This document shows, piece by piece, positions 24,817 to 64,000 of a DNA stretch of 64,000 nucleotides. The position numbers and the translations under genes are program-made. Position 1 is the stretch's first letter; each line of letters starts with the position of its first letter. The notes under the pieces were generated by a model that was given only the letters and a program-made list of their open reading frames with translations, was not told the DNA's origin and made no database searches. The stretch is from Bugula neritina (Eukaryota; Animalia; Bryozoa): assembly GCA_964035545.1 (NCBI GenBank), contig OZ037769.1, forward strand, positions 10,136,633-10,200,632, read 5' to 3'.

Positions 24817-25415
24817 TGTTATGTTTTCCAGAATTAGGGTTGATATGCAATCCAGAGAGTCTAATTACTTGCTATAGAACTGCACCAGGATAAGTCGAGT
24901 GAACGAGTATATATTTTAAACACAATAATACATTACAAAAACGATACAAATACATCTGACAATTTACACATCTAGACTATTCAGCACTCTAACTTCGACT
25001 GACTAACAGCGGGAAAACTATTACTGCTGCTAACTAATCCTAAGCCGCTAATTGGCTATCAATTGTTCCGGGTCAATTACACGACCCCATATACTGTGCT
25101 GCTGGTAGCTCCACGAGCCACCACACCGCCCCCACCAGCAGAAAGCCCTCTTTCTGATATATAAAAACATTCATCCTTAACCACATACATCAGTAGACCA
25201 AAAGATAGTACATAACACATATAAAGATATCTAATAGCAGACAGAGTCATTATAACAGCAAGTTACATACAATTGGCCAGCTATAGAGGAGGAATACCGG
25301 CTAGCTGTAGTATTGGACAAAGAGTCGACCTGTCGAGCAGTCAAGCATTTGCATGATAGTCTTGGGTCTCCCAAGAAGGCGAAGTTGTGGATTATTCCGG
25401 GTAGCAGAACCAGAG

Positions 25416-26488: not shown

Positions 26489-26512
26489 ACTGAATTTGTG
26501 AAATGGTTTGAA

Positions 26513-31063: not shown

Positions 31064-31963
31064 CCCGGAGTTAGGAAGGGACAGTACCTGCGAAAATGTC
31101 CTTGATTTCCGCATTCCCAGCAAAAACTGACTGTTTCTCCCTGTGGCGGCGCTGGTGGCCGTACGGGCTCAGCGGCGGTACCTACTGGGGTTTGGGGTGT
31201 CAGTGTTGCTATCAGTTTGGCCAGCATGTCTGTCAGTTGAGTGACTTTCGATGCCGTCGCTAACTGGGACACGGCAGCCGTGGCGGAGGTTTCCTCCTCT
31301 CGTCCCGCGGCCGTGTCCGCGCGGTCTACCTCCACTTGACGGGAGCTCCCGCGACTTTTATGCATTTGATTAGCTAGGAGGTAAGCTTCCCCCTCAGTCA
31401 GAGCATCTTCAACGGTGGTGACTCCCCTAGCTAGAAACTGGTGGTGGAGACCCAAATCGTCGACAGATGCTATGAAAGCGTCGAGGGTATACCTCTCGCG
31501 GTTGACTGGGGGCAAGTCGCTGTATGCGATCTGTGCCAGCTTCATGACCGCGGCGGCGTGCTCCCGCAGCGGGGTGCGGGGATCACACCGCAACCTCTGC
31601 AATCAGGCCTTGGCATCTGTAGCAGAGAGGCCGAAGCCGGCCCGCAGAGAAGCAAAGATATTATCAATGTCTACGCCCAGCCCATAAGGCTTGGCTTTGT
31701 CCATCAATGCCATTCTAAGCTTCAGCAGGGCCACCCTAGGGGGCCACTGGGCGACGTCCATTACGTCGCTAAACTCTTGGATAAATTGTTCCACCTCCTC
31801 TTCGCCCGTGAAGGTGGGCGCCTTTAACCGGTAGCGGTCTTCAGTTAGTTCTCGCGGAACCCTTCGCTCTTCTACTACATGGTTAACAGGCATTGTCTAC
31901 AGCATTGTCTCTACGCTCACCTTCTACTGCCGGTGGTTGCGTTCCAGCATTTTCAGTCTCCAT
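31012..31963 (-). pseudogene. gag: E1 gag with CCHC knuckle; frameshift near 31890 and in-frame TGA at 31603
   Basis: METENAG.. start matches E2; APTFTGEEEVEQF; CWECGNQGHFRRYC. Confidence 0.88.
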
Positions 31964-34732
31964 CTTGGATGCACTATCCCACCGCTGCCACCACTGTTAT
32001 GTTTTCCAGAATTAGGGTTGATATGCAATCCAGAGAGTCTAATTACTTGCTATAGAACTGCACCAGGATAAGTCGAGTGAACGAGTATATATTTTAAACA
32101 CAATAATACATTACAAAAACGATACAAATACATCTGACAATTTACACATCTAGACTATTCAGCACTCTAACTTCGACTGACTAACAGCGGGAAAACTATT
32201 ACTGCTGCTAACTAATCCTAAGCCGCTAATTGGCTATCAATTGTTCCGGGTCAATTACACGACCCCATATACTGTGCTGCTGGTAGCTCCACGAGCCACC
32301 ACAATACTATTAGTATTACATTTACTATTAGTATTACTATTAGTATTACAGCTACTACTACGTCTACTTACTACTATATTAGTATTACTAAGTCTAATAG
32401 TAATACTAATACTGCTACTGCTAGTGCTACTGCTAGTGCTACTGCTAGTGCTACTGCTAGTGCTACTGCTAGTGCTACTGCTAGTGCTACTGCTAGTACT
32501 ACTGCTAGTACTACTGCTAGTACTACTACTAGTTCTTAGAGTTGGTCTTACAGTTACTAGTATAATATTATTAGTAATACTAATACTTATACACTTACAG
32601 TTATACTTTTATAGTTGAAGTTATACTAATGGTAATACTAATACTAATTGATAGGTATAGGATGAGGATCATGATGATCATACTCATAACATTAATTTTA
32701 ATTTAACTTATAAGAATAAGTCGTACTCATACTCACTAAATACTATCGGTAATTATACTGATGCTCATATTCATACTGTAATACTAATACTCATAGTGAT
32801 GGTGATACAGTAACAGTTACAGTTATATTAATAGTAATAATGATGATGGTGAGGATCTGATAGTCATACGCTAACACAGTTACTGATTACACTTACACTT
32901 TATAGAGGCTCATGTTGATAGTTATTGTCATAGGGACACTGATACTCATATTGGCATTGCTTTTTTGGAATGACTATCAGTATCACTATGAAATTTAATT
33001 TGGCTCCAAGTCTAACTTTGAGATAAACTCTGAGTGTTAGTACCAGTATCAATAAGTGACTATCAGTATGAGTATGAGTATCGCTATCAAAGTCAGTATA
33101 AGTATTGCAATATGAGTAAAAGTATGACTATGAGTATGATTTCAGTTCAGAGAGATGACCTCCAGATAAACGACCATCAATATATTCTACATAGACAACC
33201 CCCCCCCCCCCCAACTGGACGACTTTCATTTAGACGACTTTATAATTTGAAAACACTAAAAATTACTAAAAATAAATTTAATGACATTTGATACTAAGTT
33301 GCATTTATTTTGATTTCATGTGAATCTATGTGCACAGGTGTCTAACTGAAGCTATTTATAGGTGTATAACTGAAGCCATATGCATAATATGACTCATTAA
33401 AACTATTGCTCTAACAGTTTGCTAAAGCCATATCCATAAGATGCCTAATTTTTTTGAAATGATATAATATAATTTTTTAAAACTATTCTTTTACATTATA
33501 TTCGTTCAATTTGAATTTGAATTTGAATATCATCTGCACATATATTTGATAGCAATATTTTGGTAGTCTAACTGGGGGTCATCTATCTGGAATGACACCA
33601 TGAGTATTATGACTATGACTATAACTATCATCGTGATAATGATAAAGCTAGGCATTGGGTTAGGGTGTTTTAGCTCTAAGTGTAGTGAAACTTATTAACT
33701 GTTATGCTAAGCTTAATGTTTATTTAGCTATAGTACATCTGACAATTATAATAGTTATACTTGCAGTAATATTAAGTTAGACCGCAGAATCCGCTTGGTC
33801 AGTTAGTGGTTCTACAATTTTTGTCTAGCAGTAGATGAGGCAATAGAATGCTTGTGTCTATGCTTGGTAATCGCTTTGATAGTAGCGAACCAACATACAA
33901 AGCTGATTTCTCAGATTAAAGATTAGTAATGGAAGTTTATCAACATTTAATTGGTTGGAGCCTCTTTACCTGTTTAAACTTTGATTTCGGTTTGATTTCG
34001 TCCTAGTCAATCTTTGGCTAAAATTGAATAAATGTGATGAAACTACAATCATTTTGTTGACCTAAAGTTTTGTGGGTATTTTATTATTGCATATGATGTA
34101 GGCAAATGTACTTCATAGTCCTGGTTCTTGAGTGAGTGTGTGTGTGCAGGTGTGATGAAAATGAAAGTTTAATAATGCATTGGAAAGATTATGGTGCAAC
34201 AAGTCTAATCTAAAATTTTACCTCATTCAACAATATCTTAGCTGAACTTCCTGTAGTTGAACTTTTGTTTAACTATGAAACTAATTTATACTTATTATTT
34301 ATATATTTATACACATATAACTCAATCTATTGGCAATTTTTATTTGAAGGGTTCAGCTCCTTCTCAGTACATAACAGAGCTATAACAGCTCATGTCGTTG
34401 CAATAGAAGAAACTAATGTTTCTACCAAAACAAATTTGGTAAAAAAATTAGCTATATTACCACACAGTGAACAGGATCTAACTACTCACATTATTCACTA
34501 CATTTGCTGCTGCTACCAGTATACTTGATATCATCAAAACTACCTCTGAAATGTCATCGGAAATGTTGTGATATTTTATAACTAGTAAATGGCACTGTAC
34601 AAGATGAGCTAGGTATCACGTCAAGACACATTAGCAGGGTTATTTACTTGTAGATGAAGCACAGTATCTTCATTGTATCCTAACATCGCCTTCTGTCAGT
34701 ATCATCCAAGTCGACAGTGTTACAAGACTGAG

Positions 34733-44983: not shown

Positions 44984-46054
44984 AAATGTGGGAAACTGTG
45001 TAGCTTTAGCGAGTTTTAATTTTGGTAGCTCAAGAAGAGCGGTAGATTATTAGTTGTTTGTTTGCAACAAACTGCGTAGAGACAATAATTTAACAGTATT
45101 GATTCGAATAGTTTTATAAGCAGCTCCAAGTTAGGGGTGACTGCGTGCAGTAGTTTGCGGTTCTCGAGTTTAAGGTTTAGGGTTTATTGGAACTCCTATT
45201 TACAAAAAGCCCGAGAACCGCAAACACTGCGCTTAGTTCTTCCCAACTTGACGCAGTGTGGTATATTTAGGAGTGTTGACTTTAAACCATGAAAAATCAT
45301 AATGCCGCTATTGGTACCGCGAGTTTATATAAGTTATAAAAGAAAAATTTTGTCACTTTTGTGATTTTATTTTTTTTTAATTTTATGTGTCTATTTTTTT
45401 TAATTTTGTTTATTAGTAAAGTTTTTAAACATATTTTCAATGCATATAAAATTAAAAAAAAAATTAAAACTCAATCACGTGTTATAATTTTCAGATTTAG
45501 GGTCGATGTGCCACCAAGAGAGTCTATTTATCACTAGAGAAACTTCACCGAGTTAAGTCGAGTAGATATCGTTATATTTTAATACAAGAATACATAATAA
45601 AATCTAATGTACAACAGTAATGATACGCACGTCTATTTAATTTACAGCACTATCCTCAACTGAGCTAGTAGCGCGAAGCTGCTACTATTACTCATAAAAC
45701 AGCCTAGCTAATTGGCTAATGCATTGTTCCGGGTCAATACGCAACCTTGCGTATTGTGTTGCTGGTAGCTCCACGAGCCACCACACTGCCCCCTCCAGCA
45801 GAAAGCCCTCTTTCTGATAAAAATAAAATTCACATAAAAAAACGTATACTTCGTTGCGGGGGGAAGAGAACAGTATAAAAGTATATACAAAAAAACAAAC
45901 AACCGATAAAATATACAGGTATATATAAAACGTGCAGAATAAGTAATAAGTAAGAGAAGGTCCTATCTACATGTAGAGTACGTGCCACCATAACGGTAGG
46001 GAATGCCACAGAGAGGTAGGGGAAGAGTAGTATGGAGTTGGAGATAGACTCAAG

Positions 46055-47184
46055 TTAACTGCGGGCCGCACGCTTCATGCGTTTAATAGACTCCTGTAAA
46101 TATTTGAGTTCACTGGATGCAGCCTGCACCCGCGGGGCCAGTCTGTACACTTCTTGCTCCAAGTCGTGTGCCCTAGCTTCTACTTCACGTAGGTTGCGGG
46201 CCCAGGGGGACGAGCGAGAGGAAGTCGGCTGTCTGTGTCTTTTCCGCTCTGAGGATGGAAGGGGAGGAGGAAGTGTATACGCATTCGTGTCTACCCTCTG
46301 TAGTACGACACGAGGAAAGGTATGCGGTATGCGTAGAGGACTGTGAGGTGGAGAGTTAGTAGACTGTATAGGTTTATCTGTGGCTCCAGAGATGATGGGT
46401 CACGGGGAAGGGAAGCCTTGCTCCAGGCGAGATAGCCGAGCTGGGTCAGTGATGAGTGGTTTGATGGCGTTGAGAAATGCAGGATAGGATGATTCGTCTA
46501 CTTCATAGACATGTCCTTGATAACACTGCATAGTACGTTGGTGACGCAGTAGGTAATCACGATTGTAGCTATATTCTCCGCAAGGGCAGAAAGTGGTGAT
46601 GTAATGTTGCGGCAAGTGTACTTTCAGTCTGCGGTGGGTTGTAAATCGCTGCTGGCAGAGGTTGCATTCGCAATTACTTTCACCTCCTTGATGAGTCCTA
46701 ATCTCTCTCTCTGTGGCAGGGGTAATCCAGTTGGAGGTTGCTTCCAACTGGGGTGGCAGTTGCCTGGTTGTAGAAGTTGTTGGGGCCGGCTCTGGGTCCC
46801 ACGCCATCTCTAGAGAAGGCATGCCCGGAGAGACGGGCGCGAGTGTGTCTACAAAAGTAGAATTATTGTTAGATTGCGGTGGATCTTTACAACATAATTC
46901 TAGTGACTGTCGACTGTTGCTAGCCTGAGAGTCACAGCTTTTGGAATGCACTCGAGGAACCGATGAATCATGTGTGGACTGACCAAGAACAGTGTCTAGC
47001 TCCAGGTCTAACAGACCATCGGCCATTACAGTGTCTTCATCGTCATTCACATGAAACGTGGTTCCCAGTAATTCTGATTCAATCTGCTGAATTAGTTCAG
47101 AATTTACTGGCATCGAGCCCGTTTCCATGAATAGGAATACAAGACTTATACTGGCTTACCTGGGAACTCGGTATTAATGTCCAT
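46055..47184 (-). pseudogene. E2 accessory ORF3, predicted spliced (47160-47184 + 46055-46848), with a single in-frame TGA at 46400
   Basis: CNLC-x12-H-x3-H and CPC-x12-H-x5-C. Reading through the TGA gives the homologous coiled coil ARNLREVEARAHDLEQEVYRLAP..SIKRMKRAARS*. Confidence 0.75.
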
Positions 47185-50100
47185 ACTCAACGTTCTTGGT
47201 AAGATTGGAGCTGGTTGTGAGATACGTCTGCCTTTGGCGATGTCAGCATAAGAAAAGGCTGAGCATCGTTTCTGAGGCACGAGGTCGGAACTATTTGCTT
47301 TACGCGCATTAATTCCTCCCACTATTCCGCACTCGCAAAAGTTGATATTTGCGTGGGGTTCACAACTCCAACATTTCATCGTACGGTTTTCCCCTAGACT
47401 TTCATGTGCGCCGCTTCTAATGCAGTCACATACGAAGTCTTTTAAATATGGTGGGGGTTTCCTCGTACGCTGTCCCCTTTCTAGGGGGGGTGACACGCTT
47501 GCCGGTTCGTTAGTAGGGGCCTCTAATGGCGTCTCTACTTCACCGTTAGCGGTCACCTCTTCTTGTTCTCCGGATGGAGCCCCTCCCTCCGTGGGGGTTT
47601 GCACTTCCGGAACCGGCTCGGTTTCTGGAAGTGATGGAATTAGACTTGGCGGTGGCGGACACGCTTCTGTTGGCAAAAGCTGCCGCTCCTCTCTCACCAA
47701 GTTTTCTTCCCGCGGTATGACCACTTCGTATTCAGGTCCATGCCGCCGTCGCCCGCGCGTTGTTGTCTGCCTCCTGGGCTCTAACAACGGGGGGGCTTCT
47801 CCCACTCCGTCGGGGCTAGCCCAATACGGTTTCAAGCGAGACTCATTCTGGATAGACACCTGTCCTGAGCGCTCAATCTTGTACGTATGATTGGGCATAG
47901 CCTCGACGATCACGTAGGGTCCTACGAACTTAGGCTTCAGTTTATCAGCCTGTCCGCGACGCCTACGGTAATTGACCATCCACACCTTATCTCCCGTTTG
48001 ATAGAGAGGTGGTTCATCGGAATCTTCGTGCCGCACCTTCCACTGCTGTTGGCGCAGTATATCGTGTGCGGCCTTCATCCGTTCCACTAGTTCACTGGCA
48101 TACTCGTGAACCGAGTTGTCTTGCTCTGGAACGTGATAGGTGAGATGGTCAGGGACACGAGTCTCCCTCCCGAGCATCAAGAGGTTTGGGGTCTCACCAG
48201 TACTGGTGTGTGGGGTGCTACGGTATGCACGCATGACTTGCGGCAACACCGTATCCCATTCCTCTTGACCTCATCCAAGGAGGAGACTCCGGAGCGCATC
48301 ACCTAGCATCCGGTTGTTGCGCTCCACCACCCCGTTACCTTGAGGGTGGTAGGGGGTGGTCCTGCTCTGATTTACTCCCCAGAGGTGACAAAGGTCGCTC
48401 ATCAGTTGAGACTGGAATTGAGCGCCTTGATCAGAGTGTATCTGTTCGGGGAGCCCAAAATAACAGAATACATGTTGGTCTAGTGCCCTGGCCACTGTTG
48501 GGGCTGATGCATCTGGGATAGCCAGAGCATCCGCCCACCTAGTAAAGTGGTCGGTTAGTACTAGGATCCAATTATTGCCTCTGGGGGTCAGGGGCATGGG
48601 TCCGACCAGGTCTACAGCGACTACTTGCCAGGGCCTACCAGCATATAGCCTCCGCCGTCCTGCTTCACCAGGGGGGCGGCTATGCTTACTGGCCTGGCAG
48701 ATCTCACACTGTTTGACTCTGAGTCGGACATCACGCTCCATTTGTGGCCAATACCACCGGAGTCGTAATTTGGATATCACTCTCTTGACCCCTGCGTGGG
48801 CCTGTTTGTGAGTATCCCAAATCAACTCACGGCGGATGGCCGTGGGGCAGACTACCCTCTTCCTTTCCGGGTGTCTGCCGCTGGCAGCTAGGGAGATGGT
48901 GAGTAACCCATCCTGCCCGATCCGCAGCGAGTCCCAACGCTGACAGTATAGCCGGAACTCGGCGCATCCCTGTCGTATGCGTTCTTCGCTGGGTCGTCGC
49001 CCTTCCCTTTTGGCCCGGTATATGTCTGCCACGACTCCAGGCAGCTCTTCTTGGAGCTTCTTCAGCTCTCGAACATTACCGGCCAGTACAGGGTTGGCGC
49101 GGAGGTTTTGTACATCCTCCGGGGACTCATCAACTCCTTGCCTGAGTTGACCCTGGTCCCAGTCAAACGGTGCTCCGTGCTGAGCCAGCGTCTCCAACTC
49201 GCATCGCGGGGGACCTCCATCCCTCCTCTCGATGTTGAGACACTGTTTGCAACCTCCGTCAGGTCGGCGACTCAACCCATCCGCATTGCTGTGTCTCTTG
49301 CCCGGTCGATGTTCGATCCGGTATGAGAATTCAGCTAGGATTTCGAGCCACCGGGCGACCTGACTAGAGGGCTCTGCTCTCTTGCACAACCAGATCAGCG
49401 AGGCATGATCCGTACGCAGCCGGAACTTCCTGCCGTATAAGTATGGTCTGAAGTGCTTCACTGACTTGATTACTGCCGGCAGCTCCTTGTGGGTAGTGCA
49501 GTAATTTCGTTCAGCGGGTGAGAGAGACTTGCTGTAGTAGGCTACTACTACCTCTCGGCCCTCCTGCACTTGTGACAGCACAGCGCCAACATTTTGGTCA
49601 CTGGCGTCCGTGTCGAGGATGTACTCCAGAGTGGGGTCTGGGTAGGCCAAGATGGGCGCCGTTAGTAGGCAGCCCTTGAGGCGGTCGAACGCTCCTTGTT
49701 CGACTGGGGTCCACTGCCACGTCACTCCCTTTGCGGTGAGCCGGTTTAACGGCTGTGCTATGCCCGCAAAGTCCGGTATGTATTGCCTGTAATACCCTAC
49801 CAGCCCCAAGAAAGCCCGGAGTCCGGTCAAGTCTTGGGGGGTGACCCAGTCTTCTACCGCCCGTACCTTTTCGGGATCCGTTGCCACGCCGTTTCGACCG
49901 ACAACGTGCCCCAGGTACTTGACCTCCGGCTGCAATAAAGCGCACTTGGAAGGTTTGAGCTTAAGACCGGCACCTCGGAGTCTCTCGAAAACCTCCTGCA
50001 GACGACTGACATGTGTCTCGAAGTCTGGAGAGATTACGATGACATCATCGAGGTAGACCAGCAGTGTCTTCCAATGGAGCCCGCTAAGGACTTGTTCCAT

Positions 50101-51243
50101 CAGCCTCTGGAAGGTGGCTGGGGCGGAGGTTAACCCGAAGGGCAGCACCTTCCACTTCCACAAACCGTCCCGTGTGATAAACGCCGCTTTCTCTTGGGCG
50201 TCGGGACTCAGAGGAACTTGCCAATAGCCGCTTAGCAAGTCTAACGTACCGAAGTACTTGCTGCCGGCTAGGGCGTCCAATGACTCGTCAATACGAGGTA
50301 GAGGGTAGGCGTCCTGTATGGTTACGCTATTGAGTTTGCGGTAATCCACACAGAACCGCCAACTGCTGTCTTTCTTCCGGACCAGTACGACTGGCGAGCT
50401 CCACGCACTATGGGCGGGCTCTATCAGTCCCCGGTCCAGAAGATCCCGTACTTGTCGGCTAACCTCCTTCTCTTTCTCCGGCCCCAGCCTGCGTGTGGGC
50501 TGCCGGACAGGGACTGTCCCTGCAGTCAGCGGTATTTCGTGTCTGACAGTTCCAGTCAGTCCCACGTCATGCTCTCCGCTGCTGAACACATCACCGTAGT
50601 CGCGTAGTAACTTAGCCATAACTTGGCGTTCTCTGTTACTCGCGCAGCCGCCACTGGCTGTTTCGTATAACTCCCGGAGATGTGTTGGGACTGCCCCTCG
50701 TCCCTGAATAGGGTGTCGAGGGGGTGCCTCCGTCGCGTCATCCAGCGACGGGCCCACGTCCTCTTCCTGGACGGAGTGGAACCGGCCCAGCATTGACCCA
50801 GCTGGGAGCTCAATGGGCTCGGTAAAGGGGTTGACACACTGCACTAAGACCTCCCCCCGCTCAGTTAGTCGGTTTAAACTACTGGCGAGTTGGATCCTTT
50901 CGTGCGCGCCTTCAACGACCCCGAGCCTGGCTATCTGGTTGCTGTTCACTCGGCAGTGGATAGTAGCTCTGGAGCGTCCGGGCACGGTGCAGTTTCGAAC
51001 TACCTGAACACCGCCCACCAGAAGACGCCCAAACTTATCCACACAGGCGAGTTCTCGCCCGCCCATCAGCACCACCGACTTACTAAAGTCTATTCGGCAC
51101 TGGTGTTGCTTCAAGAAGGGCATTCCGAGGATAGCATCTTCCTCCAGTTGGCCTATGACAAAGGTCTCCTGTACAGCGTGGTCTCGGACACGCCCAGGGA
51201 GCTCGATAATACCATAAAAGGGAATACATGACATCTTCGACAT
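47146..51243 (-). pseudogene. pol: E2 pol (partial PR, RT, RNase H, integrase) with one nonsense codon at 48271
   Basis: ORFs 48271-51243 and 47146-48249 are in the same frame, separated by a TGA where E3 has CGA. Confidence 0.93.
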
Positions 51244-51814
51244 CTTCCGACCCAGTAAAGGTGGGAGCTTTCAAGCAATGTCTATAAGCTTCTTCTCCCT
51301 CACGATTCACAGGATTAACAGCATTTCTACGCTCACCTTCTACTGGGGGTGGTTGCATTCTAGCATTTTCAGTCTCCATCTTTGATGTACACTATCCCAC
51401 TGCTGCCACCACTGTTGTAATTTTCAGATTTAGGGTCGATGTGCCACCAAGAGAGTCTATTTATCACTAGAGAAACTTCACCGAGTTAAGTCGAGTAGAT
51501 ATCGTTATATTTTAATACAAGAATACATAATAAAATCTAATGTACAACAGTAATGATACGCACGTCTATTTAATTTACAGCACTATCCTCAACTGAGCTA
51601 GTAGCGCGAAGCTGCTACTATTACTCATAAAACAGCCTAGCTAATTGGCTAATGCATTGTTCCGGGTCAATACGCAACCTTGCGTATTGTGTTGCTGGTA
51701 GCTCCACGAGCCACCACACATGCACGTAAATACAAAGCTATAAAGTTTAAGCTTTGCTGTGATTACAACGTGAATATGAATTGAATAATACTTGCAATAA
51801 CCATTTTACACAAA

Positions 51815-52517: not shown

Positions 52518-53578
52518 TGTAGTAGTTTTGTGGGTGATAGAATGAAATCAGGCAGAGAACATAACTCCTTGTTATAGAAGAGACAAGAGAGAGAGGTTGC
52601 CGTGTGCTTGCAGTACTTTATTGTAGCAGTGAGAAGTGTCCAGTGTGAGCTCCAGTCCGCAAGTGACTGAAGCTCTAAAATGCGTGTCCTTTTATACTGG
52701 TAGAACAAAGGACCTCTAGAACCTTCCACCGACAGCGGGCCGATGTTCGGCAGGGGATACCGACATGACGAATGTCGGTAACTGACACTGGAAATATCGG
52801 TAACCGACATTCGGTCTGCCTGCATCCACCTGCTAAAATCGGTCCAACTGTCGGTTTACATGAATCAACAAAAATGAACCCAACCAAGTGTATGCGTATT
52901 GTAACTTGTAATTGGGGGAAAGGGGATTAACTATTTACTATGTTAAAAGCTCAACATTAGCCATAGTGTTTAAGGTATTAGAAAGTTACGCTACATAATT
53001 AACTATGATTACAGTATTTAGAAAAATAACCATAAGTAATGTGTCAAGGGGGATAACTCTTAATATTTACCACACACACCCCCTATCAGAAAGTACAGTT
53101 TCTGATACAAAAACAGAGGGTAAATATAACAACGTAAATCAACTGGCCAAGGGGCATGAGGAGTAGCATGAGAATACAGGGCTAGGCCACTGGGAATACA
53201 GAAAAATAATAATAAAAAAAACTTGGTTGAGGTTCAGGTTCTAGAGAAAAATGGTATAATACTGATAAATGCTAATAATAATAGTAAAATATAAAAAAAC
53301 TTTGATACTGCAATGCACACTATTGTTCACACACATATTTGTAGTAATACTTATAACACACTAATAAAAGTAATATAAAGTCTCATCTATCACTCCTTAG
53401 CAAAGCCTGAATGTCTCCTTCGAAGAGGTCTCTTGAGTCTCCAGATATCTCCTTCGTGTGGGCAGGGACAGGTAGGCTGGTTGCGAGTGGGGGGGGGGTA
53501 GAGCGCAGTAAGTGGATGATGAGTGAGAGGTGGTGGTGGATAGGTCGAGGTCTCTTCTTAGCCTTGGGCAGGTTCTGG

Positions 53579-56500
53579 CTACTGTCGTCTATCGTGGCCA
53601 GCACGACCCGTAAGTACGTTTGGTAGCGTCAGTGTTCTCCGTCCTGGTCCGTCGAGGTCTATCCAGACAGCCCAACTGCCCAGAGTCACTTGCGCTTCTT
53701 CCGCAGGGAGTTGAGCTTCTTCAGGTAAAGGAAGCTCCTCTAAAGCAGTGGGGGCAGACTGGGCCAGAGAGGGGGAACCCGTCGGGCCGACTGGAGCCGA
53801 GCCAGGGTTCCGGATAAAGGGGAAGTCGGGTTGAATCGCTTCGTCTACTCCAGTATCCATGTGGTTGTATGACGACTCTGGCTGCGGGAGAACCATGTCA
53901 TCGTCTGTTTCATCCTGATTGTTGTCAGAACCTAGTGAGGGGTCAGTATCTGCCGATTTTGGGTACGTGAACTCAATTTCAGTATCACGCCCCGGGTATC
54001 TAGGCCCACAGAGATGGAAGTCTATGCCTGTGCTAGGCGAATTAGGTTCTATTGGGGTTAGATTCACGGGTCCCACGTGATAATCGGCTAGATACCCTGG
54101 GGGTCTCCTACTTCTTGACTGTCTCTCCAACTCCACAGGTGCCTCAGGCTGGGGTGGAAGTGTGATAGGGGCAGGGGTCCCTGGGTCACTTCCTTCAGCG
54201 TGAGGTGCACCTCCTGGCACCGGGGCCGGCGCTGGGGCCGGTGCAACTGGTGGACCAGGTGGAGGAGGAGGTTCTGGTGTCCGGTCCGCTTCTACTGGGT
54301 CTTGGACTGCAATCTCCCACTCTCTGGGCCGAGCCACCCGTCCTCTGGAGATGGGCTGGCGAGCCGGCTCGAGTAGGGGAGGTGCCTGCCCCGCAGCGTC
54401 TGGGCTGCCCTCATAGGGTTTCAACCGCTGCTCGTTTTAGACTGAGACCTGCCCTGAGCGTTCCACACGGTATGTGTGGTTCGGTAGAACCTTTATGATG
54501 CAGTAGGGCCCCAAGAACTTGGGCTGAAGTTTAGCCGACTGTCTGTGTCGCCTACGGTGACTCACCATCCATACCCAGTTTCCTACTTGGTATAGTGGGG
54601 GCTCTTCGGAGTCTTCCGTCCTTGTCTGCCACTGCTGCTCGCGCAGGGCTTCATGAGCCTGCTCCATCGTCTCGATAAGCTTCCCCACGTACTCATGTAC
54701 GGGGGCCTCAGGCGCAGGAACATGATATGTTAGGTGCTCCGGGATGCGAGTCTCCCGACCGAGCATCAGGAAGTTTGGGGTTTCCAGGGTACTGGAGTGT
54801 GGTGTGCTGCGGTAGGCCCGCATTATCTGGGGCAGCACCACGTCCCATTCTTCCTGTCCTCGGCCTAAGAGCAGGCTTCGGAGGGCATCTCCTAACATCC
54901 TATTGTTCCTCTCGACGACTCCGTTCCCTTGCGGGTGATATGGGGTCGTCCGGCTTTGGTTCACCCCCCATATCCGGCAGAGGTCTCCCATTAGCTGGGA
55001 CTGGAACTGGGCCCCCTGGTCAGTGTGAATCTGTTTGGGAAGCCCGAAATAGCAGAACACTTGCTGATCCAGGGTCCGGGCCACGGTGGGGGCTGATGCA
55101 TCTGGTATAGCCAGGGCATCAGCCCACCGAGTGAAGTGGTTCGTGAGCACCAGTATCCAGGTGTTCCCTCTGGCAGATAACGGCATAGGTCCGACTAGAT
55201 CCACGGCCACTACCTGCCATGGCCGACCAGCGTATAGCCGGCGTCGACCCGTGGTCTCGGTAAGGCGGCCATGTTTGCTAGCCTGGCAGACCTCACATTG
55301 CCGTATCCGCAGTCGCACGTCCCGAGTCAGTCCGAGCCAGTACCAGCGCAGTCTCAGACATCTGATGACCCGACTGGCCCCTGAATGGGCCTGTTTGTGG
55401 GTGTCCCAGATTATTTCCCGCTGGAGGGCACGTGGACATACGACGCGTTCCCTCTCACGGCGGTTATCTGCTGCGAGTGTAATGGTGAGGAGGCCGTCCT
55501 GGCTGACCTTGAGGGAATCCCAGCGGCTACAGAGGTGTCGGTACTCGACGTCCCCTTGTCGCTGCTGTTTCTCGGTAGGTCGGCGGCCCTCCTTTTTGGC
55601 CCGGAAGATTTCAGCCACCGCTCCTGGTAGTGTCTGCTGGAGCCGACTCAGCTCCTGGACGTTTTGATACAGCATGGGGTTGGCCCGTAGGGCATTGACG
55701 GTATCCGGTGGGCGTTCGGACCGAAGCTGGCCGCCTTCCCAACTGTGGACGTCGTCGCTCCCCAGCTCTCTCTCTACGTCCAGGCGAGCGGGTCCTCCAT
55801 CTCGCTCCTCGATGTGCAGACACTGCTTGCAGGCCTCCTCCGGCCGTCTGCTCATCCCATCAGCATTCCCGTGCTTCCCCCCAGCACGATGCTCGATCCT
55901 GTATGAGAATTCCGCAAGAATCTCCAGCCATCGGGCCACCTGGCTCGAGGGCTCTGCACGCTTACACAGCCATATTAGAGATGCATGGTCTGTTCGCAAC
56001 CTGAACGCTTTCCCATACAAATATGGCCGGAAGTGCTTCACCGCCTTAACTACTGCCAGGAGCTTCTTTCTGATGGTGCAGTAGTTCTTCACGGCGGGGG
56101 AGAGGGTCTTGCTGTAGTAGGCGACGACCACCTCAGCTCCACCCTGAACCTGTGACAGAACAGCTCCCACGTTGTGGTCGCTGGCGTCGGTGTCCAGGAT
56201 GTATTCCTTGGCTGGGTCAGGGTACGCCAGAATAGGCGCCTCTGTTAGCCGACTTTTGAGGTGGTCAAATGCCTGTTGCTCCTCCTGTGTCCACTGCCAC
56301 CGGACCCCTTTAGCTGTTAGCCGATTCAATGGCTGTGCAACTCCTGCAAACCCGGGGATATACTGCCGATAGTACCCCACCAGGCCCAGGAATGCGCGTA
56401 GCTCTGTGAGGTCTCGGGGGACAGTCCACTCCTCCACAGCCCGTACCTTCTCCGGGTCGGTAGCGACGCCGTGACGGCCAACCACATGGCCTAGGTACTT

Positions 56501-58441
56501 CACCTCCGGCTGTAGGAGTGTACACTTGGAGGGCTTTAGCTTCAATCCGGCGGTCCGAAGACGGTCAAAGACCTCCCGCAGACGACTGACATGAGTCGCA
56601 AAGTCTGGGGAGATTACTATGACGCCGTCCAGATAGATGAGCAAAGTCTTCCAGTGTAATCCACTGAGGACCTGCTCCATGAGTCGCTGGAAGGTTGCCG
56701 GGGCGGACGTTAGTCCAAATGGCAGAACCTTCCACTTCCAGAGCCCATCGCGGGTGATGAACGCTGCCTTGTCCTGTGCATCGGGACTGAGGGGCACTTG
56801 CCAGTACCCACTCAGCAGGTCCAAAGTACTGAAGTACTTGCTTCCCGCGAGGGCGTCTAGAGACTCGTCTATCCTGGGAAGAGGGTAAGCATCCTGGATG
56901 GTGACACTGTTGAGTCTGCGGTAGTCCACGCAGAACCTCCAGGTACCATCCTTCTTCTTGACCAAGACCACGGGAGAGCTCCACGCACCGTGGGCAGGCT
57001 CAATCAGGTCCCGGTCAAGAAGGTCTTGCACTTGTCTGCTTACTTCCTTCTCCTTCTCCGGACCTAGCCGTCGTGTAAGCTGCCTGATGGGGGTGGTCCC
57101 GGCTGCCAAGGGTATCTCAAGACACACCACCTTGGTCAGCCCCATGTCTTCATCTCCGCGACTGAAGACGTCACTGTAGTCCACCAGTAGTCGAGCCAGT
57201 GCTTGGCGATCGGCACTACTGCTACAGTTCCCACAGGCTCCATCATATAGGCCAGCCACATGCTCCGGTATCGCCGTCCGTCCGGCCCGAGGGGGAGCAC
57301 CCGGGGCGTCGGTCACTGTCTCCAGTGCTGGCCCCACATCCGATTCCTGGATGGAGTGGTACTTCCCCACCAGGGCGCCTGCCGATAGCTTGATCGGCTC
57401 GGTGAAAGGGTTGATGCACTGTACGAGGAGTTCTCCCTGGCAGTCTAGCCGATTTAGGCTGTTTGCCAACTGGATCCCTCCTGGCATTCCTTCTACCAGT
57501 CCCAGTCCAGCTATCCTCTTGCAGTTGACCTTGCAGCGGAGGGTAGCCTGGGACCGTCTGGGTACAGTGCAGTTGTGCACTATTTGGACCCCACTTACCA
57601 AGGGTCTACCGAACTTGTCGACGCAGACAAGTTCCTTGCCAGCCATCACCAACGCAGAATTCTGGAAGTCTATGCGACACTGGTGTTTCTCCAGAAACGG
57701 CATGCCCAGAATTGCGTCCTCCTTCAGATGGCTGACAATAAAGGTCTCGTGGATCGCCTGATCCCGGACCTGTCCATGTAGTGTAAGGACGCCGTAGAAG
57801 GGAATGCATGATCCGTCCGCCAACGTACCATGCGCCCCCTCATACGGCTCGAGACTGGCCCTCACGTGGGCCCCAACGGTGTCAAACAGGCGCCGACTCA
57901 GCAGGTTGGTAGTACAACCGGTGTCCAACAGGAAGGTGGCAGCTTTTCCCGCAATCTTCCCGGGTAGGAAGTAGCTGCTTCCATATGGCTGGACACTTTT
58001 AGGCTGGTCGGCCTCTGTGGGTGACACCTCCTGGGTTACCACGTGGGGTCGCCTCCTTGTCTTCGCGACAGCGGGGGTTTTTAGAGGTCTAGAAGGTAGC
58101 TTGGGAAACTCTTGCGAGTAAGCTGGATCTTCTTCTATGACCTCGTGGGTTAACCCCGCGAACCGGTTGTGGAGTGGCCAGGCAGGAGGTTCGGGAAAAC
58201 CTTGCGGTCTCCGAGGTCTCCGGGGTGCCTGCCACCCCGTGTCAGCTGGCTCCCTCCGAGTACTGCTTGGCATGGCTGGAGGTCTAGGTGGGCCTCTAGG
58301 CCCCCTTCTCTGAGGACTAGGCCGTCTGAGGTTGGCCGCTTTGTCCATCGTTCCTCCAGATGCGTCCAGTGTACTCCTGGGTGGGAGGTTTGACCTGGGC
58401 TCACGGTTGGCGGAATCTACCGTGAGCCTCCGGCGTTTAAA
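53579..58441 (-). pseudogene. pol: E3 pol with RT active site mutated to YLDG, a nonsense TAA at 54437 and a long Pro/acidic tail
   Basis: The 1342-aa ORF plus the in-frame ORF 53579-54424; LLDTG protease; HHCC and DDE integrase. Confidence 0.93.
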
Positions 58442-59308
58442 GGTAGTTTTCCCTTTTGGGGACAACGCCGCTGGACGTGACCCAAGGCGCTACACCCCCA
58501 GCATGTGGGTTGGTTCAGCCTGGTTGGGTTAGTCCGAGTATCGGTCGTCCTCCTGCCTCCCTGTTGCTGTTGCAGACTCGCTACTTCCAGTTGCAGGCCT
58601 TTCACCATGTCTACCAACATGGTGATCTGCGAGGAAGAGGGTGCAGGGTCAGCAACAGTGGCAACTGTGGCTTCTTCTTCTTTGGCCGCCTCTTCCCTCT
58701 TCCACTTGACTTGCTGTGAAGTCGGCTCTGTGGGGGTTGTCTACCTGATAGTAGGACCGGCCCATCGCTAGAGCTTCCTCGATCGTGGAAATCTTGGCGG
58801 CCAGGTAATGCTTCTGTAGAGCGCTGTCATTGATAGTACTGAAGAAGGCCTCGTAGACTAGCTCCCGCCGCTCATCTAGAGCGATTCGGCTGTATGCTAT
58901 CAATGCCAGTCTTTCAATGGCGTTAGCATGGTCTTGAAGCGAGGTCCTTCTGTCCCTCTTCATGTTCTGAAGTTTGGTTCGGGCTTCTCTAGCAGTCAGA
59001 CCGAACCGTGTCCGGAGTGCCTGATAGATCTGCCCAACATTCTCCCCGACAGCGTAGTTCTTAGCTGATCCAGTCAGGCATGACCGCAGCTGTAGAAGAC
59101 GTACCGGTGCCGGCCATGCGGCGAGGGTAGCAACATCTTCAAATTCTTTGATGAACTGCTCTACGTCGCAGTCCCCTCCAAAAATCGGCGGCTGAAGGCG
59201 ATACCTGTCGAGAGGTAGTGCCGGGTTAGCCGGGCCGATTGCCCGGAGGGCGGTTACTAGGCTCTCCAGGGTGAGAGCCTCTCCTCCATTTTCTGGTGCC
59301 CTTGACAT
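58417..59308 (-). pseudogene. gag: E3 gag with a 1-nt frameshift near 58696; knuckle CWGCSALGHVQRRC
   Basis: ORFs 58649-59308 and 58417-58620. Confidence 0.88.
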
Positions 59309-60365
59309 CTGGCTAGCTCCTTGTCTCTTCCAAGGGCTGCCTGACTATTCTGATCCCACCGCTGCCACCGATGTAGTAGTTTTGTGGGTGATAGAATGAA
59401 ATCAGGCAGAGAACATAACTCCTTGTTATAGAAGAGACAAGAGAGAGAGGTTGCCGTGTGCTTGCAGTACTTTATTGTAGCAGTGAGAAGTGTCCAGTGT
59501 GAGCTCCAGTCCGCAAGTGACTGAAGCTCTAAAATGCGTGTCCTTTTATACTGGTAGAACAAAGGACCTCTAGAACCTTCCACCGACAGCGGGCCGATGT
59601 TCGGCAGGGGATACCGACATGACGAATGTCGGTAACCGACACTGGAAATATCGGTAACCGACATTCGGTCTGCCTGCATCCACCTGCCGAAATCGGTCCA
59701 ACTGTCGGTTTACATGAATCAACAAAAATGAACCCAACCAAGTGTATGCGTATTGTTGTGAGTTTTAGCACAATTATCAAGCGTGGATTGTCTGCGTATT
59801 TAGTTTCAATTTAACTAGCAACTACTAACAGAGCTTGCGTACGATAACCTTTATTTAATTCGATAAACATAATTATAACAGTATGTCAAAACCACAATAC
59901 ATCAATCAATTATAAACACGTCTAGCTACTACGAGCCCCTGCTCTCAACAACATGGTTTCTGCTAACTAACCCGCGAACAGTCACTTGACCGGAACCTTG
60001 CCTTCCGGTCCTTCTGATTGGTTGGTAGAACATAGTTATAAGTATTCCAATGCAGGAGGAGACAAATGCATTATTATGCTACGTAATCCCATTACACCGC
60101 CCCCACCAGCAGAAAGCCATACTTTCTGATAAAAACAGAAATAGTATAATAATGCAAAAATAACATAAGTCAAGAAAATCCACAAAGAGAAAGAAGAGAA
60201 ATACCAAATGTATGATAATATAAGTAAGATAACGGATGGCCAGCGTACCACTGGCCAGCTATAAAGAGAGAGTCCTGGATCGTAGGTCTTTAGCAGTCAA
60301 GCATTTGCATGATCACAACGTAGTATCCCGGGAACATGCGGGGTGGAATTGCCAACTGTCAGCTC

Positions 60366-61393
60366 CTATTTTTGTAGGGACTGGATCCGGTGACGTGCTT
60401 GCCGTGCACGTAGTCTACGCTTAAGGCGTCCCACTGAGCCCTTTAGTTCATTAAGGCTCACTGAAGTGCTGAGTAAGTCGGGAGCCAACTGGGTGAATTC
60501 ATCTTGCAGCCGTAAGAGTCTTTCTTCAATGGTTGCTAGCCGGGTAGGTCTGGGTGGAGTTGGCGTCGCCTCCTCTGGGGAGTCTGATGCTTCCATAGGG
60601 GTATTATCTAGCCGCGGTATGATTGCGGCGACCGTTTTCACCATAGGGGACTTCTGACGGGCGGCTGTTAGCAATGTATAAAATCCGGAGGATAATGCGG
60701 CCCAGGTTAAAGCCTTCTTAACTACTGGTTTGACCGCTTCTAGGTATTTATCGTAGTTGTCCGCGTCTACTACATAGCCTTCGCCCGCGAAACAGTCCAT
60801 CATATGAGCCACGACGGGGTATGGGTACACGTCGTGAAATCCACACGGACAGAACCGTAGCAGGAAGTGTGCATTCACATGCAGCCGTAGTCCTTGGTGT
60901 GAGGGAAGCTCTTCGTAACACATGTGGCAGGTGTTTTGTGACCTACTCGGTCCCCAGGCTTCTTCAATCTGCCGCTCCGTTCGTCGCGACACCCATCTGT
61001 GTCTTCGACGCAGCACCGCGGGCAGTCCGTTGTCCATTTCCGGTCCGTTATCCAAGGAGGAGAGAGAGTGTAGATCCTGTGACCCAGAGTTGGTCGATCG
61101 AGTGTGATCTGCAAGAGTATAACAGTGTAGAGTGTACACTGAGTACAACCGGCGTATACAGCCTGGTGGGTACTTAACTCAATTAGACACTCGTGAGACT
61201 CAGTTAATGAATAGTTGATCGAAAACACACACTGCTGTAACAGACTGTTAAGTCTTAGAGTCAATGTGAATTCTCACCACTAAAAATCATTACCGAGTCT
61301 CCAGCTTACTCTATTATAGTTAAGCTGATTAATACAGTTTAGCCCTCGTACCAAAAACATAACTAACTCACCCCTCGATTCTTGGCAAGCCAT
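60366..61393 (-). CDS. E4 accessory ORF3, predicted spliced (61372-61393 + 60366-61108), 254 aa zinc-finger/coiled-coil protein
   Basis: CHMC-x12-H-x3-H and CPC-x12-H-x3-C; RLATIEERLLRLQDEFTQLAPDLL; donor G|gtgagt; acceptor ctcttgcag|. Confidence 0.75.
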
Positions 61394-62140
61394 TGTGAAT
61401 GAGAGTGGTATGTTTATGAATTCTACGTACGTCTACTCAAAGCTGTATTAATGTGATGAAAGAGCGAGCAGCGTGGTTGTGAAACGTGACTATGACTTAT
61501 TACCTCCGGCGTATGAATCTTATTTGAATCTCCGCCGAGGCAAAAGTTGATATTTTCGTGGTGCTCACAACTCCCACGCTCTGCTCTCTTCTCCTCGCGG
61601 CTTCTCGTAGGACGTTTGACCGCGCCCTGAACGGAACGTGGTAAGTCCTTGCGATACGCGGGGCCTGGCTTAGGACACCGTTTCCAAGGTGTCGTCACTA
61701 ACCAAGGCGGTTTACGCACCCGTGGACGGTCACGTCTCTTGGGTGGTGCTTCCAGCCAGTTTGTGACAAATGGAGCTTTCCTAGCATCTCCGTTCGGAGC
61801 CTGGGGAAGTGTTATCTCTAGCCATGGTGGTTTACGCACCCGTGGACGGTCACGTCTCTTGGGTGGTGCTTCCAGCCAATTTGTAACAGATGGAGCTTTC
61901 CCAGTACTTCCGCACGGAGCCCCTCCCTTGGGGGGTTTTTGCACTTCCAGGTCGGTTCCTGACCTAGGAAGTGGCGGTGGCGGCTTGCACGCTAACGGCG
62001 GTGAGCGCACTTCCCTGGACGGGGGTGGCTTTTCCTGCCTCGCCACTGTTTTGGGTTGCATCCTAGGCGGTTTGTCAACCAGGTTAGCAGTCTCCGTCTG
62101 CCCGGGTTTTTCTGCACTTTGCCTTCGCCGCCCTACCTCC

Positions 62141-63610
62141 TCAGTAGGGGGGGCCGTGCTTACTGACCCGGCAGACTCCGCACTGCCCAACGCTGTGTCG
62201 TACATCACGCTCCATGTGAGGCCAATACCACCAGAGTTGTAGTTCGGTAAACACCTGTTGGGCTCCCCCATGAGCCTGTTGGTGTACCTCTTCTATCAAC
62301 TCTTGGCGGATGGCGGCAAGACAGAGGGTCCTCTCCTGGTCTGGCTGGTGGTGGTTATCGGCCAAAGATATGGTCAGTAGACCATCCGGCCCGATCCGCA
62401 GTGCGTTCCACTGTCGGCAGTACAGCTGCCACTCAGGGCAGCCCTGCTCCCGTTGTCTGTCACTGGGTCGTCGCCCTTCCCGTTTCATTCGATAGACGTC
62501 GGCTACCACCCCCGGAATAATTTCCTGGAGGTGTCCTAGCTCCTTGACGCCATCGGTTGAGACAGGTTTGGCGGGGGGGGGGGGGGGGTCCCGTGCCACC
62601 TCTGGGGGCATGTCAGGATTCCCAAGGTGAGGTGTAATCTCGGTTTTGTGTATTGACGTGGCCGTTTCCGGGCGCTGTTCGTCATCCACGCAACCGGCTG
62701 ATGTTCTCCCACGGGTCTCCTGGCTGTGGGGTGAGGCAGTCCTTCGCCCGTAGGGCGGCTTCTCTAGAGGACTTTTCATCGAGGTTTCCCGCGATGGCCT
62801 GCTGTTATCTTCTTGAACAGAAGGAGTACAGCTTGGTGGAGAGGTGGGTGGTAGGCTCACTGGTTCAGAGGGGGAGTGGAGGCATGGCACCGGGGTCTTT
62901 CCTTTCCGTGTCAGCTGGTTAGAGCTGCGGACAGGTGGGACTTTCGGGTGCGCGCTCTCTACAGCTCCCGGCCTGGAGGTACGGCCACCGTCTACCTTGC
63001 GGTGGACGGTGTCCCGGGAGTGGCCAGGCATAGTGCAAGTACGTACTACCGGCTCTTCTCCCGTTAGGGGACGGCTATGGACCTGCCGCGAAGGGGAAGA
63101 CGGCGCCCCGTACGGCGTCTTCGTCTTCTCCCTCGCAGTGTCTGAGGTCGACAGCCCATCGAGTCCGTCTCGGAGTGGCTCCCGGCGGTGCGGCTTGGGT
63201 CTAGTTTCCCTTCGAGGCTTCTTCGCCGGCCCGCAGGGTGCGGGGGCCGTGGAGGGCTCCATGTCCATGGTGGAGATGCCAAAACGGGCCCGCAGGGAAG
63301 CGAAGATACTGGCCACGTCAGTTCCCTCGCCGCATGGCTTGGCCTTGTCCGCCAACGCTGTCCTAAGCTTGAGCAACGCCATTCTTGGTGGCCACCGTGC
63401 AAAATTCCGCAGATCTTGAAAAGTTTGAATGAATTGTTCTACTGATTCTTTACCTGTAAAGGTGGGTGTCTTCAGCCGATATATAGTCTCCTCGAATCTT
63501 ATAACAACTCTCACCATATCCCAGACTGCGGGGTCTACAGGCGTGACAATGTCATCTTCCTCCTCTTCACTTAGTGGCATGAGTAGTTCCGTAGCTCTTT
63601 CTTTTGCCAT
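62141..63610 (-). CDS. E4 chimeric ORF, 489 aa: Gag N-terminus + Pro-rich out-of-frame pol remnants + pre-integrase region and HHCC domain
   Basis: KTPTFTGKESVEQF..RARFG (gag); PGVVADVYR..HQQAHGG..CGVC (pol). Confidence 0.6.
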   Translation of the reverse strand: MAKERATELLMPLSEEEEDDIVTPVDPAVWDMVRVVIRFEETIYRLKTPTFTGKESVEQFIQTFQDLRNFARWPPRMALLKLRTALADKAKPCGEGTDVASIFASLRARFGISTMDMEPSTAPAPCGPAKKPRRETRPKPHRREPLRDGLDGLSTSDTAREKTKTPYGAPSSPSRQVHSRPLTGEEPVVRTCTMPGHSRDTVHRKVDGGRTSRPGAVESAHPKVPPVRSSNQLTRKGKTPVPCLHSPSEPVSLPPTSPPSCTPSVQEDNSRPSRETSMKSPLEKPPYGRRTASPHSQETRGRTSAGCVDDEQRPETATSIHKTEITPHLGNPDMPPEVARDPPPPPAKPVSTDGVKELGHLQEIIPGVVADVYRMKREGRRPSDRQREQGCPEWQLYCRQWNALRIGPDGLLTISLADNHHQPDQERTLCLAAIRQELIEEVHQQAHGGAQQVFTELQLWWYWPHMERDVRHSVGQCGVCRVSKHGPPY

Positions 63611-64000
63611 TCTGATATACGCATAATCCCACCGCTGCCACCACTGTTGTGAGTTTTAGCACAATTATCAAGCGTGGATTGTCTGCGTATTTAGTTTCAA
63701 TTTAACTAGCAACTACTAACAGAGCTTGCGTACGATAACCTTTATTTAATTCGATAAACATAATTATAACAGTATGTCAAAACCACAATACATCAATCAA
63801 TTATAAACACGTCTAGCTACTACGAGCCCCTGCTCTCAACAACATGGTTTCTGCTAACTAACCCGCGAACAGTCACTTGACCGGAACCTTGCCTCCCGGT
63901 CCTTCTGATTGGTTGGTAGAACATAGTTATAAGTATTCCAATGCAGGAGGAGACAAATGCATTATTATGCTACGTAATCCCATTACAGTATTGTAACTTG

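What the first reader, a model, noticed from the sequence alone, without database searches (positions are those of the whole stretch)
46055..47400. ORF3 + LTR behave as an exchangeable 3' module on a near-identical pol backbone
Seen: E1 and E2 are nearly identical in DNA through RT, IN and the IN tail up to ..ESLGENRT (~26697 / ~47381). They then diverge sharply, with only distantly similar ORF3 proteins and LTR interiors. E1 ORF3 is much closer to that of E4 (shared HVNAH, DVYPYPV, EERLLRLQ.EFTQLAPDLL) even though E4 has a different LTR. Inference: template-switch recombination shuffles the accessory cassette, or it evolves fast under host conflict.
Basis: partly seen in the sequence, partly recalled or inferred. 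Interest (0 to 1): 0.7.

Follow-up and report, generated by a model that had tools for sequence, protein, structure and literature searches.

The report
Swappable zinc-finger cassette in Gypsy retrotransposons
Two neighbouring Gypsy-type jumping genes in an animal genome share a nearly identical enzyme core but carry two very old, different versions of an extra zinc-finger gene, likely exchanged by recombination without their end repeats and likely made from a spliced RNA as the element's own regulator.

Summary
The breakpoint is real, but the module is misdrawn. E1 and E2 differ at 63 of 509 four-fold sites from RT to the IN tail and at 26 of 40 in ORF3; the switch lies at 26682/47378. Against E4, the LTR, gag start, IN zinc finger and IN tail group E1 with E2; only the stretch from the pol end to the polypurine tract groups E1 with E4. 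So the ORF3 cassette moves without the LTR. ORF3 falls into two old clades, A (E1, E4) and B (E2), which rules out recent fast evolution. In 20 outside pol-tail proteins both cassette types sit on the same backbone groups (at least 3 changes, AU p 4e-7). A second breakpoint near the protease/RT border suggests that RT-IN is the most recently shared block. ORF3 is a two-finger zinc domain plus a coiled coil, not an envelope, and is likely spliced: in-frame donors and acceptors, plus one outside protein with the predicted join. Its function and target are inferred, not shown. Recombination of 3' genes is known; this protein family was not found in the searches.

The parts
45480..51718 (-). E2, Ty3/Gypsy element; LTRs 45480-45785 and 51413-51718 (1 difference in 306); most of gag deleted; target-site duplication CATG/CGTG
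47378..50631 (-). RT-RNase H-integrase block recently shared with E1 26682-29949
   Evidence: 63 of 509 four-fold sites differ; max-chi2 peaks at both ends
45818..47378 (-). E2 3' cassette, type B: pol C-terminal Cys/His peptide, mini-exon, predicted intron, ORF3, 3' UTR
46055..47155 (-). E2 ORF3 frame (type B), own Met at 47128, one in-frame stop at 46400-46402; predicted acceptor before 46848
47160..47184 (-). E2 predicted mini-exon (ATG, 25 nt, phase 1, donor CAG|GTAAGC)
   Evidence: prediction
51337..51379 (-). E2 gag-start exon (43 nt, phase 1, donor AAG|GTGAGC), in frame with the ORF3 acceptor
   Evidence: prediction
45799..45817 (-). hairpin just before the polypurine tract; right-hand anchor of the cassette, present once in each of the four elements
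   Evidence: 4 matches, 0 in 100 shuffles
24817..32303 (-). E1, full-length Ty3/Gypsy element; LTRs identical (309/309); pol broken by frameshifts; target-site duplication GTAT
25158..26682 (-). E1 3' cassette, type A; ORF3 open 25416-26270; predicted mini-exon 26464-26488, intron 266 nt, acceptor before 26197
31921..31963 (-). E1 gag-start exon (43 nt, phase 1, donor AAG|GTGAGC)
   Evidence: prediction
59754..63987 (-). E4, non-autonomous element (gag and IN remnants, no RT hit), LTR pair with 1 difference in 343, barely alignable to E1/E2 LTRs; nested in E3's 5' LTR
60130..61590 (-). E4 3' cassette, type A; ORF3 open 60366-61178; predicted mini-exon 61372-61393, intron 263 nt, acceptor before 61108
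52518..59756 (-). E3, related element (pol about 74% aa to E1/E2) without the zinc-finger ORF3 and without its two donors; natural control

Best explanation
E1 and E2 are Ty3/Gypsy retrotransposons whose RT-to-integrase block is nearly the same while the 1.5-kb cassette between the end of pol and the polypurine tract belongs to two old lineages (A and B), likely exchanged by homologous recombination, probably template switching during reverse transcription, at conserved anchors on either side and independently of the LTR. Shown: breakpoints, three tiers of divergence (RT-IN young; LTR, gag start and protease older; cassette oldest), two ORF3 clades, and both cassette types on the same backbone groups. 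Inferred: at least two exchanges separate E1 from E2, and A- and B-carrying lineages keep trading pol. Inferred: ORF3 is made from a spliced subgenomic RNA, from a 14-codon gag-start exon or from a mini-exon after pol, both joining one phase-1 acceptor. Inferred: the product is a nuclear, nucleic-acid-binding regulator of the element (two zinc fingers, basic Ser/Thr-Pro linker, coiled coil) whose type-specific target most likely lies in the cassette that travels with it rather than in the LTR.
For: Four-fold sites E1/E2: RT+RH 25/230, linker 12/81, IN 19/138, tail 7/60 differ; protease region 32/82; ORF3 26/40. Three-way sites (only E1=E2 vs only E1=E4): LTR 90/29, PBS-gag start 44/19, IN finger 117/20, IN tail 42/6, then post-break 24/52, ORF3 core 50/86, coil 13/48. 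ORF3 tree of 54 rows: A one side of a branch (SH-aLRT 99), B one side (94); core identity within A median 64% (minimum 48), within B 67% (minimum 51), between 30%. Of 120 listed pol-tail homologues (235 found), 20 reach the post-break peptide. With E1 and E2 added, its tree splits A/B once (100/100) while the upstream backbone tree needs at least 4 changes; AU rejects one A clade, p 2.5e-55, and p 3.7e-7 with 3 changes without the window rows. Splicing: G|GTRAG donors at homologous places in E1, E2 and E4 after pol and in E1 and E2 at gag codon 15, none at those places in E3; all five donor-acceptor pairs are in frame; A-type homology starts at the acceptor, where 18 of 19 A and 41 of 42 B homologues have residues compatible with YAG|; P0029 is a 14-residue peptide resembling E4's gag start followed directly by the acceptor residues. 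Protein: Cys/His ligands conserved in 68-73 of 73 rows, no strong membrane segment; model core 51-176 at pLDDT about 90 and a helix 227-283; best solved-structure hits are C2H2 fingers, E 0.008. E4 keeps ORF3 open although it has lost RT.
Against: No DNA of other whole copies was obtained: no genome is held, and the one metagenome scan returned 21 loci, none of this family, so LTR and ORF3 trees could not be compared beyond three elements. The outside test rests on 115 backbone and 43 post-break columns; the A/B label was read from that peptide itself, and its link to ORF3 type is seen only in E1, E2 and E4; hosts of these proteins are unknown. The 5' breakpoint is weaker (chi2 18.6 against shuffle maximum 15.8) and its regions were chosen after seeing the profile. 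The three ORF3 acceptors missed my strict filter (11 of 14 pyrimidines), G|GTRAG occurs 2-4 times per element on the sense strand and 4-7 times antisense, no listed joint matched a predicted intron, and P0029 is one predicted protein without its DNA. In type B the 'intron' is an open frame of fixed length (Met 88 residues before the junction motif in 24 of 42 rows), so B may be read unspliced. No fold match reached E 0.001; binding to DNA or RNA is untested. A short motif GACC(C)GGAA is in the LTRs of E1, E2 and E4 but not E3 (pattern chosen after inspection), which leaves an LTR target open.
Confidence: 0.7

Rival explanations
1. ORF3 and the LTR form one exchangeable 3' module, each ORF3 activating its own LTR.
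For: E1/E2 LTRs (71%) are more diverged than their RT-IN block (88% at four-fold sites); two zinc fingers plus a coiled coil suit a transcription factor.
Against: LTR groups E1 with E2, ORF3 groups E1 with E4; E1 and E4 share type A with barely alignable LTRs; the LTR's divergence matches the gag start and protease tier, not the cassette tier.
Confidence: 0.1
2. No exchange: ORF3 diverged quickly after the E1/E2 split under host conflict.
For: Types A and B differ at the putative contact face of finger 2, as a conflict surface might.
Against: Synonymous sites are saturated in ORF3; non-coding intron and UTR do not align between E1 and E2 but do between E1 and E4; both types are old, diverse clades.
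Confidence: 0.03
3. Same mosaic, but made by DNA-level gene conversion or ectopic crossover between integrated copies, the recombinant being copied later.
For: The RT-IN block has two ends inside the element, as a conversion tract would; copies lie close together in this window.
Against: Repeated A/B changes along the backbone tree and shared primer-binding site and leader fit co-packaging; recombination in reverse transcription is documented for LTR elements (PMC6894440, first seventh read). Sequence alone cannot separate the two.
Confidence: 0.2
4. ORF3 is a Rev/CERV-like factor exporting unspliced genomic RNA through an RNA element in the cassette, rather than a DNA-binding regulator.
For: Strong donor at the gag start makes the genome an intron-containing RNA; predicted product shares the gag N-terminus, has Cys fingers, a basic Ser/Thr-Pro linker and a zipper, as CERV does in outline (PMC10309623 sections read); E1/E4 keep a 22-nt identical box in the 3' UTR although synonymous sites are saturated; finger 1 has a hydrophobic +6 residue, unlike typical DNA readers (rule recalled).
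Against: No sequence or fold link to CERV was seen; nearest structural hits, all weak, are DNA-binding C2H2 arrays; a consensus fold of three sequences gives no reliable RNA structure.
Confidence: 0.3
5. E2 is an assembly chimera.
For: E1 and E2 carry breaks that other contigs of run X1 do not share, so the assembly has private changes or errors.
Against: Each element has a matched LTR pair and target-site duplication; an X2 contig spans E1's breakpoint (26561-26921); outside B-type tails occur on the E1/E2 backbone (P0271 76% to both).
Confidence: 0.03

Closest known systems
env swapping in endogenous retroviruses (BaEV, RD-114, SERV; PMC10536682, abstract and section 3.2.1 read)
   Same: A 3' gene from another lineage on a shared gag-pol backbone, attributed to template switching.
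   Different: The cargo is a soluble zinc-finger/coiled-coil protein, not an envelope; two types recur on one backbone group in an invertebrate Gypsy lineage.
CERV of C. elegans Cer1 (PMC10309623, abstract and two sections read)
   Same: Accessory protein of a Gypsy element from a spliced RNA sharing the gag N-terminus, with a cysteine-rich region and a leucine zipper; nuclear regulator.
   Different: CERV exons lie in the gag region's reading frames as described there, it has a C4-type loop and a G-like domain; ORF3 lies after pol, has C2H2 plus C2HC fingers, and no homology to CERV was found or tested directly.
Variable ORF3s of bdelloid LTR retrotransposons (PMC5408684, abstract and sections 3.3-3.4 read)
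   Same: Non-envelope third ORFs (including coiled-coil types) shared between element lineages.
   Different: Those are GDSL esterases, DEDDy exonucleases, membrane or coiled-coil ORFs, family-specific; here two paralogous types of one protein family alternate on one backbone.
Oikopleura Tor3b/4b elements (PMC4402516, passages read) and foamy-virus tas/bet (recalled; search listing only)
   Same: A 3' gene expressed from an internal promoter, one reading of the ATG-bearing mini-exon after pol.
   Different: Tor's third gene is an envelope glycoprotein; no internal promoter was shown here.
Recombinant centromeric retrotransposon subfamilies of grasses (PMC4079200, abstract and outline read)
   Same: Inter-element recombination creating mosaic subfamilies that then proliferate.
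   Different: Plant chromoviral lineage; no exchangeable accessory gene is named in the parts read.

Membership tests
Ty3/Gypsy LTR retrotransposons | pol order protease-RT-RNase H-integrase | tested here: met
   Pfam hits in that order in E3 pol and RT-RH-IN in E2
Ty3/Gypsy LTR retrotransposons | TG...CA LTR pair, target-site duplication, primer-binding site, polypurine tract | tested here: met
   (ends, 4-bp duplications); PBS TGGCAGC(A/G)GTGGGA and G-rich tract seen; tRNA-Leu assignment recalled
Ty3/Gypsy LTR retrotransposons | placement in a named clade (Mag, CsRN1, Gmr1, Tor and others) by RT tree | not testable with these tools
   no reference element library held
env-carrying Gypsy elements (errantivirus-like) | third ORF is a membrane glycoprotein | tested here: not met
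   maximum 19-residue hydropathy 1.51, 0.97, 0.99; above 1.6 in 4 of 86 long homologues; zinc domain plus one long helix
classical C2H2 zinc-finger transcription factors | CxxC-x12-HxxxH finger | tested here: met
   33 of 58 A and 46 of 53 B hits, fragments included; Pfam only below cut-off
classical C2H2 zinc-finger transcription factors | tandem canonical fingers with base-contact residues; DNA binding | tested here: inconclusive
   second finger is CxC-x12-H-C; +6 of finger 1 is L/V; finger 2 keeps R,D,R/K in B and distant rows, P,Y,P in A; no significant fold match
CERV / Rev-like export factors | made from a spliced element RNA | tested here: inconclusive
   in-frame sites and P0029; no spliced read seen
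CERV / Rev-like export factors | binds element RNA and is needed for export of unspliced RNA | not testable with these tools
   needs experiment
inter-element recombinant | breakpoint with switch of nearest relative and incongruent trees | tested here: met
inter-element recombinant | formed during reverse transcription | not testable with these tools
   needs extrachromosomal cDNA

The most novel reading that the evidence does not exclude
A Gypsy lineage of marine invertebrates runs a complex-retrovirus-style regulatory system: a spliced zinc-finger regulator that travels with its own cis target as a plug-in cassette, kept in two ancient, functionally different types (differing at the finger-2 contact face) on one continually re-homogenised pol pool, like envelope subgroups but for a nuclear regulator, and captured more than once as a host gene.
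Probability: 0.25. Interest if true: 0.8.

Novelty: new variant of a known kind. Interest (0 to 1): 0.56.

Why it matters
Regulatory accessory genes are the mark of complex retroviruses and few are described in LTR retrotransposons (CERV is one). This is an undescribed zinc-finger family (305 representatives at E up to 0.001; no Pfam family above cut-off) with two natural types on an almost constant backbone, plus a relative that lacks it (E3). That is a ready-made comparison for asking what such a gene does and why two types persist. It also shows that RT-based classification hides the regulatory type of an element.

Tried and rejected
No genome was held. The hairpin pattern gave 0 loci in viral contigs and 21 in metagenome contigs, none matching the family by tblastn or blastn. 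The ORF3 alignment found no viral locus (161 pattern hits, 0 confirmed). Summed contig depth falls at both breakpoints in run X1 but is no copy number and is not used. One RNA-library contig covers E2 46128-46401 and almost none cover E1's ORF3; DNA carry-over was not excluded, so this is not taken as expression. A 13-letter loose end at 47379 looked like a reciprocal recombinant, but the 12-nt stretch is missing only in E2 and is present in B-type relatives, so it was rejected. Joint 46874-47182 in X2 does not fall on the predicted splice sites. Foldseek gave nothing at E 0.001 in PDB or viral models; the wide structural search did not complete. Atlas hits were all under 0.9, C2H2-like, leads only. 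A three-sequence RNA fold of the post-break region was uninformative. Self-association of ORF3 was not modelled and stays open. Paper searches (listings) showed no description of this ORF3 family; Repbase and Dfam could not be searched and supplements were not read, so a catalogue entry may exist. Earlier-finding look-ups by place and sequence were empty.
Full report
Anatomy. The window holds four minus-strand LTR elements and one plus-strand fragment. E1 24817-32303 is full length with identical LTRs and a pol broken by frameshifts. E2 45480-51718 lacks most of gag. E3 52518-59756 has a long pol and no zinc-finger ORF3. E4 59754-63987 is non-autonomous and sits in E3's 5' LTR. LTR pairs differ by 0, 1, 3 and 1 bases, and E1, E2 and E4 show 4-bp target duplications, so all are young insertions. 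Domain order PR-RT-RH-IN makes them Ty3/Gypsy. The host is an AT-rich animal (copine gene at 37302); the only named ORF3 homologues are bryozoan (Bugula KAF6040922.1, KAF6037488.1; Watersipora XP_067940963/4, XP_067944745), so a bryozoan-like host is an inference.

Observation. E1/E2 DNA identity is 89% over pol and falls to 62-65% after ESLGENRT. The strongest breakpoint is 26682/47378 (chi2 37.0, shuffle maximum 15.8). ORF3 identities are E1/E4 52.5%, E1/E2 29.5%, E4/E2 27.5%. The LTR claim needs correcting: E1/E2 LTRs align throughout at 71%, E1/E4 barely.

Three tiers of divergence. At four-fold sites E1 and E2 differ at 63 of 509 from RT to the IN tail, 32 of 82 in the protease/linker region and 26 of 40 in ORF3 (Fisher p 9e-8 and 4e-13, regions picked after seeing the profile). 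A second, weaker breakpoint lies at 29949/50631. LTR (66-71%) and gag start (75%) belong with the middle tier. Selection on protein cannot saturate synonymous sites, so fast evolution does not explain the ORF3 gap.

What is exchanged. With E4 as third taxon, LTR, gag start, IN finger and IN tail group E1 with E2; the post-break stretch, ORF3 core and coil group E1 with E4. The predicted intron and 3' UTR align above shuffles for E1/E4 but not E1/E2. E1 and E4 are about equally far apart everywhere (gag 57%, IN finger 54%, ORF3 52% aa), so their ORF3 likeness needs no exchange; E2's cassette is the odd part. The unit runs from a conserved motif at the pol end to a hairpin before the polypurine tract found once in each element. 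It excludes the LTR.

Outside evidence. Searches with E1 and E2 ORF3 gave 58 and 53 proteins with no overlap. A tree of 54 chosen rows (19 A hits, 18 B hits, 8 of a third group, 6 distant, 3 window) gives A and B as separate sides; the outgroup was not one clade and long branches meet, so the root is unsure. Because contexts were unavailable, linkage was tested inside single proteins: pol's last 45 residues lie beyond the breakpoint. Of 120 listed pol-tail homologues, 20 reach it. The post-break tree splits A from B once (100/100; P0271 left out as frameshifted there), the backbone tree needs at least 4 changes, and holding A together is rejected with (p 2.5e-55) and without (p 3.7e-7, 3 changes) the window rows. 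Within the E1/E2 backbone group, A members cluster with E1 and B members with E2 on the post-break tree while interleaving on the backbone tree. This suggests two cassette lineages that keep trading pol. Limits: short alignments, label read from the peptide itself, unknown hosts.

ORF3. A core of about 125 residues with CxxC-x12-HxxxH and CxC-x12-H-x4/5-C ligands conserved in 68-73 of 73 rows, then a Pro/Ser/basic linker and a 57-residue helix. It is not an envelope. Pfam, PDB sequence, Foldseek and Atlas give only weak C2H2 leads. Finger 2 keeps R, D and R/K at putative contact positions in B and distant homologues but has P, Y, P in A.

Expression (predicted). A donor follows an ATG mini-exon after pol in E1, E2 and E4; a second follows codon 14 of gag in E1 and E2; E3 has neither. 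All join a phase-1 acceptor in frame. A-type homology begins at that acceptor, and 18 of 19 A and 41 of 42 B homologues have residues compatible with YAG there (two internal false matches dropped). The exception, P0029, is E4's nearest ORF3 relative (79%) and begins with 14 residues resembling E4's gag start, as a copy of the spliced RNA would. Against: the acceptors missed a strict filter, no spliced joint was listed in four runs, and B keeps the 'intron' open as coding sequence.

Mechanism. Most likely, co-packaged RNAs sharing primer site and leader recombine in reverse transcription (documented generally, PMC6894440, first seventh read); crossovers can fall only in shared sequence, so the cassette moves whole. 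DNA-level conversion remains possible (about 0.2). ORF3 is most likely the element's own nuclear regulator; since its type is uncoupled from the LTR and coupled to cassette non-coding sequence (22-nt identical UTR box in E1/E4), its type-specific target probably lies in the cassette, as an internal promoter or an RNA element. None of this function is shown.

Comparison and verdict. It works like env swapping in endogenous retroviruses (PMC10536682) and like the mobile ORF3s of bdelloid elements (PMC5408684), with a cargo that resembles CERV in outline (PMC10309623) but is not shown to be related. Eight paper searches listed no description of this family; element catalogues and supplements were not seen. 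Two earlier notes on third ORFs in other genomes were unchecked leads and did not change the reading. New variant of a known kind; interest 0.56.

Noticed in passing
window 59754-63987: E4 is nested in E3's 5' LTR with a 4-bp ATAC duplication; flanks of E1 (GTAT), E2 (CATG/CGTG) and E3 (ATAC) suggest a purine-pyrimidine target preference.
   Followed up: partly
window 25156-26653: A contig joint in runs X2 and X5 skips the whole ORF3 cassette from the pol-end motif to the pre-PPT hairpin with 22 other letters between: a possible ORF3-less form; only 28 letters on the short side.
   Followed up: no
window 25066, 45727, 59988-60010 and LTR twins: GACC(C)GGAA lies in the LTRs of the three ORF3-bearing elements and not in E3's; pattern chosen after inspection.
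   Followed up: partly
window 53579-54436 and 52518-53074: E3 has a different pol extension with no Pfam hit and an LTR with repeated ACCGA/TCGGT motifs.
   Followed up: no
P0384, P0115 (Watersipora XP_067940963/4), P0158: Annotated host proteins with two tandem copies of the ORF3 zinc domain; possible domestication.
   Followed up: partly
window 62141-63655: E4 keeps a 504-codon open frame stitched from decayed gag, linker and integrase-finger pieces.
   Followed up: no
window 43255-45003: Plus-strand fragment of an E3-like element (PBS, gag, protease, RT start) ending about 480 bases before E2.
   Followed up: no
window 51814-52518: AT-rich fold-back sequence between E2 and E3.
   Followed up: no
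window 14952-16250: 24-bp and 27-bp tandem arrays; the 27-bp array is open on both strands for about 370-400 codons.
   Followed up: no
window 37302-38273: Copine-domain open frame of 323 codons, a host gene.
   Followed up: no
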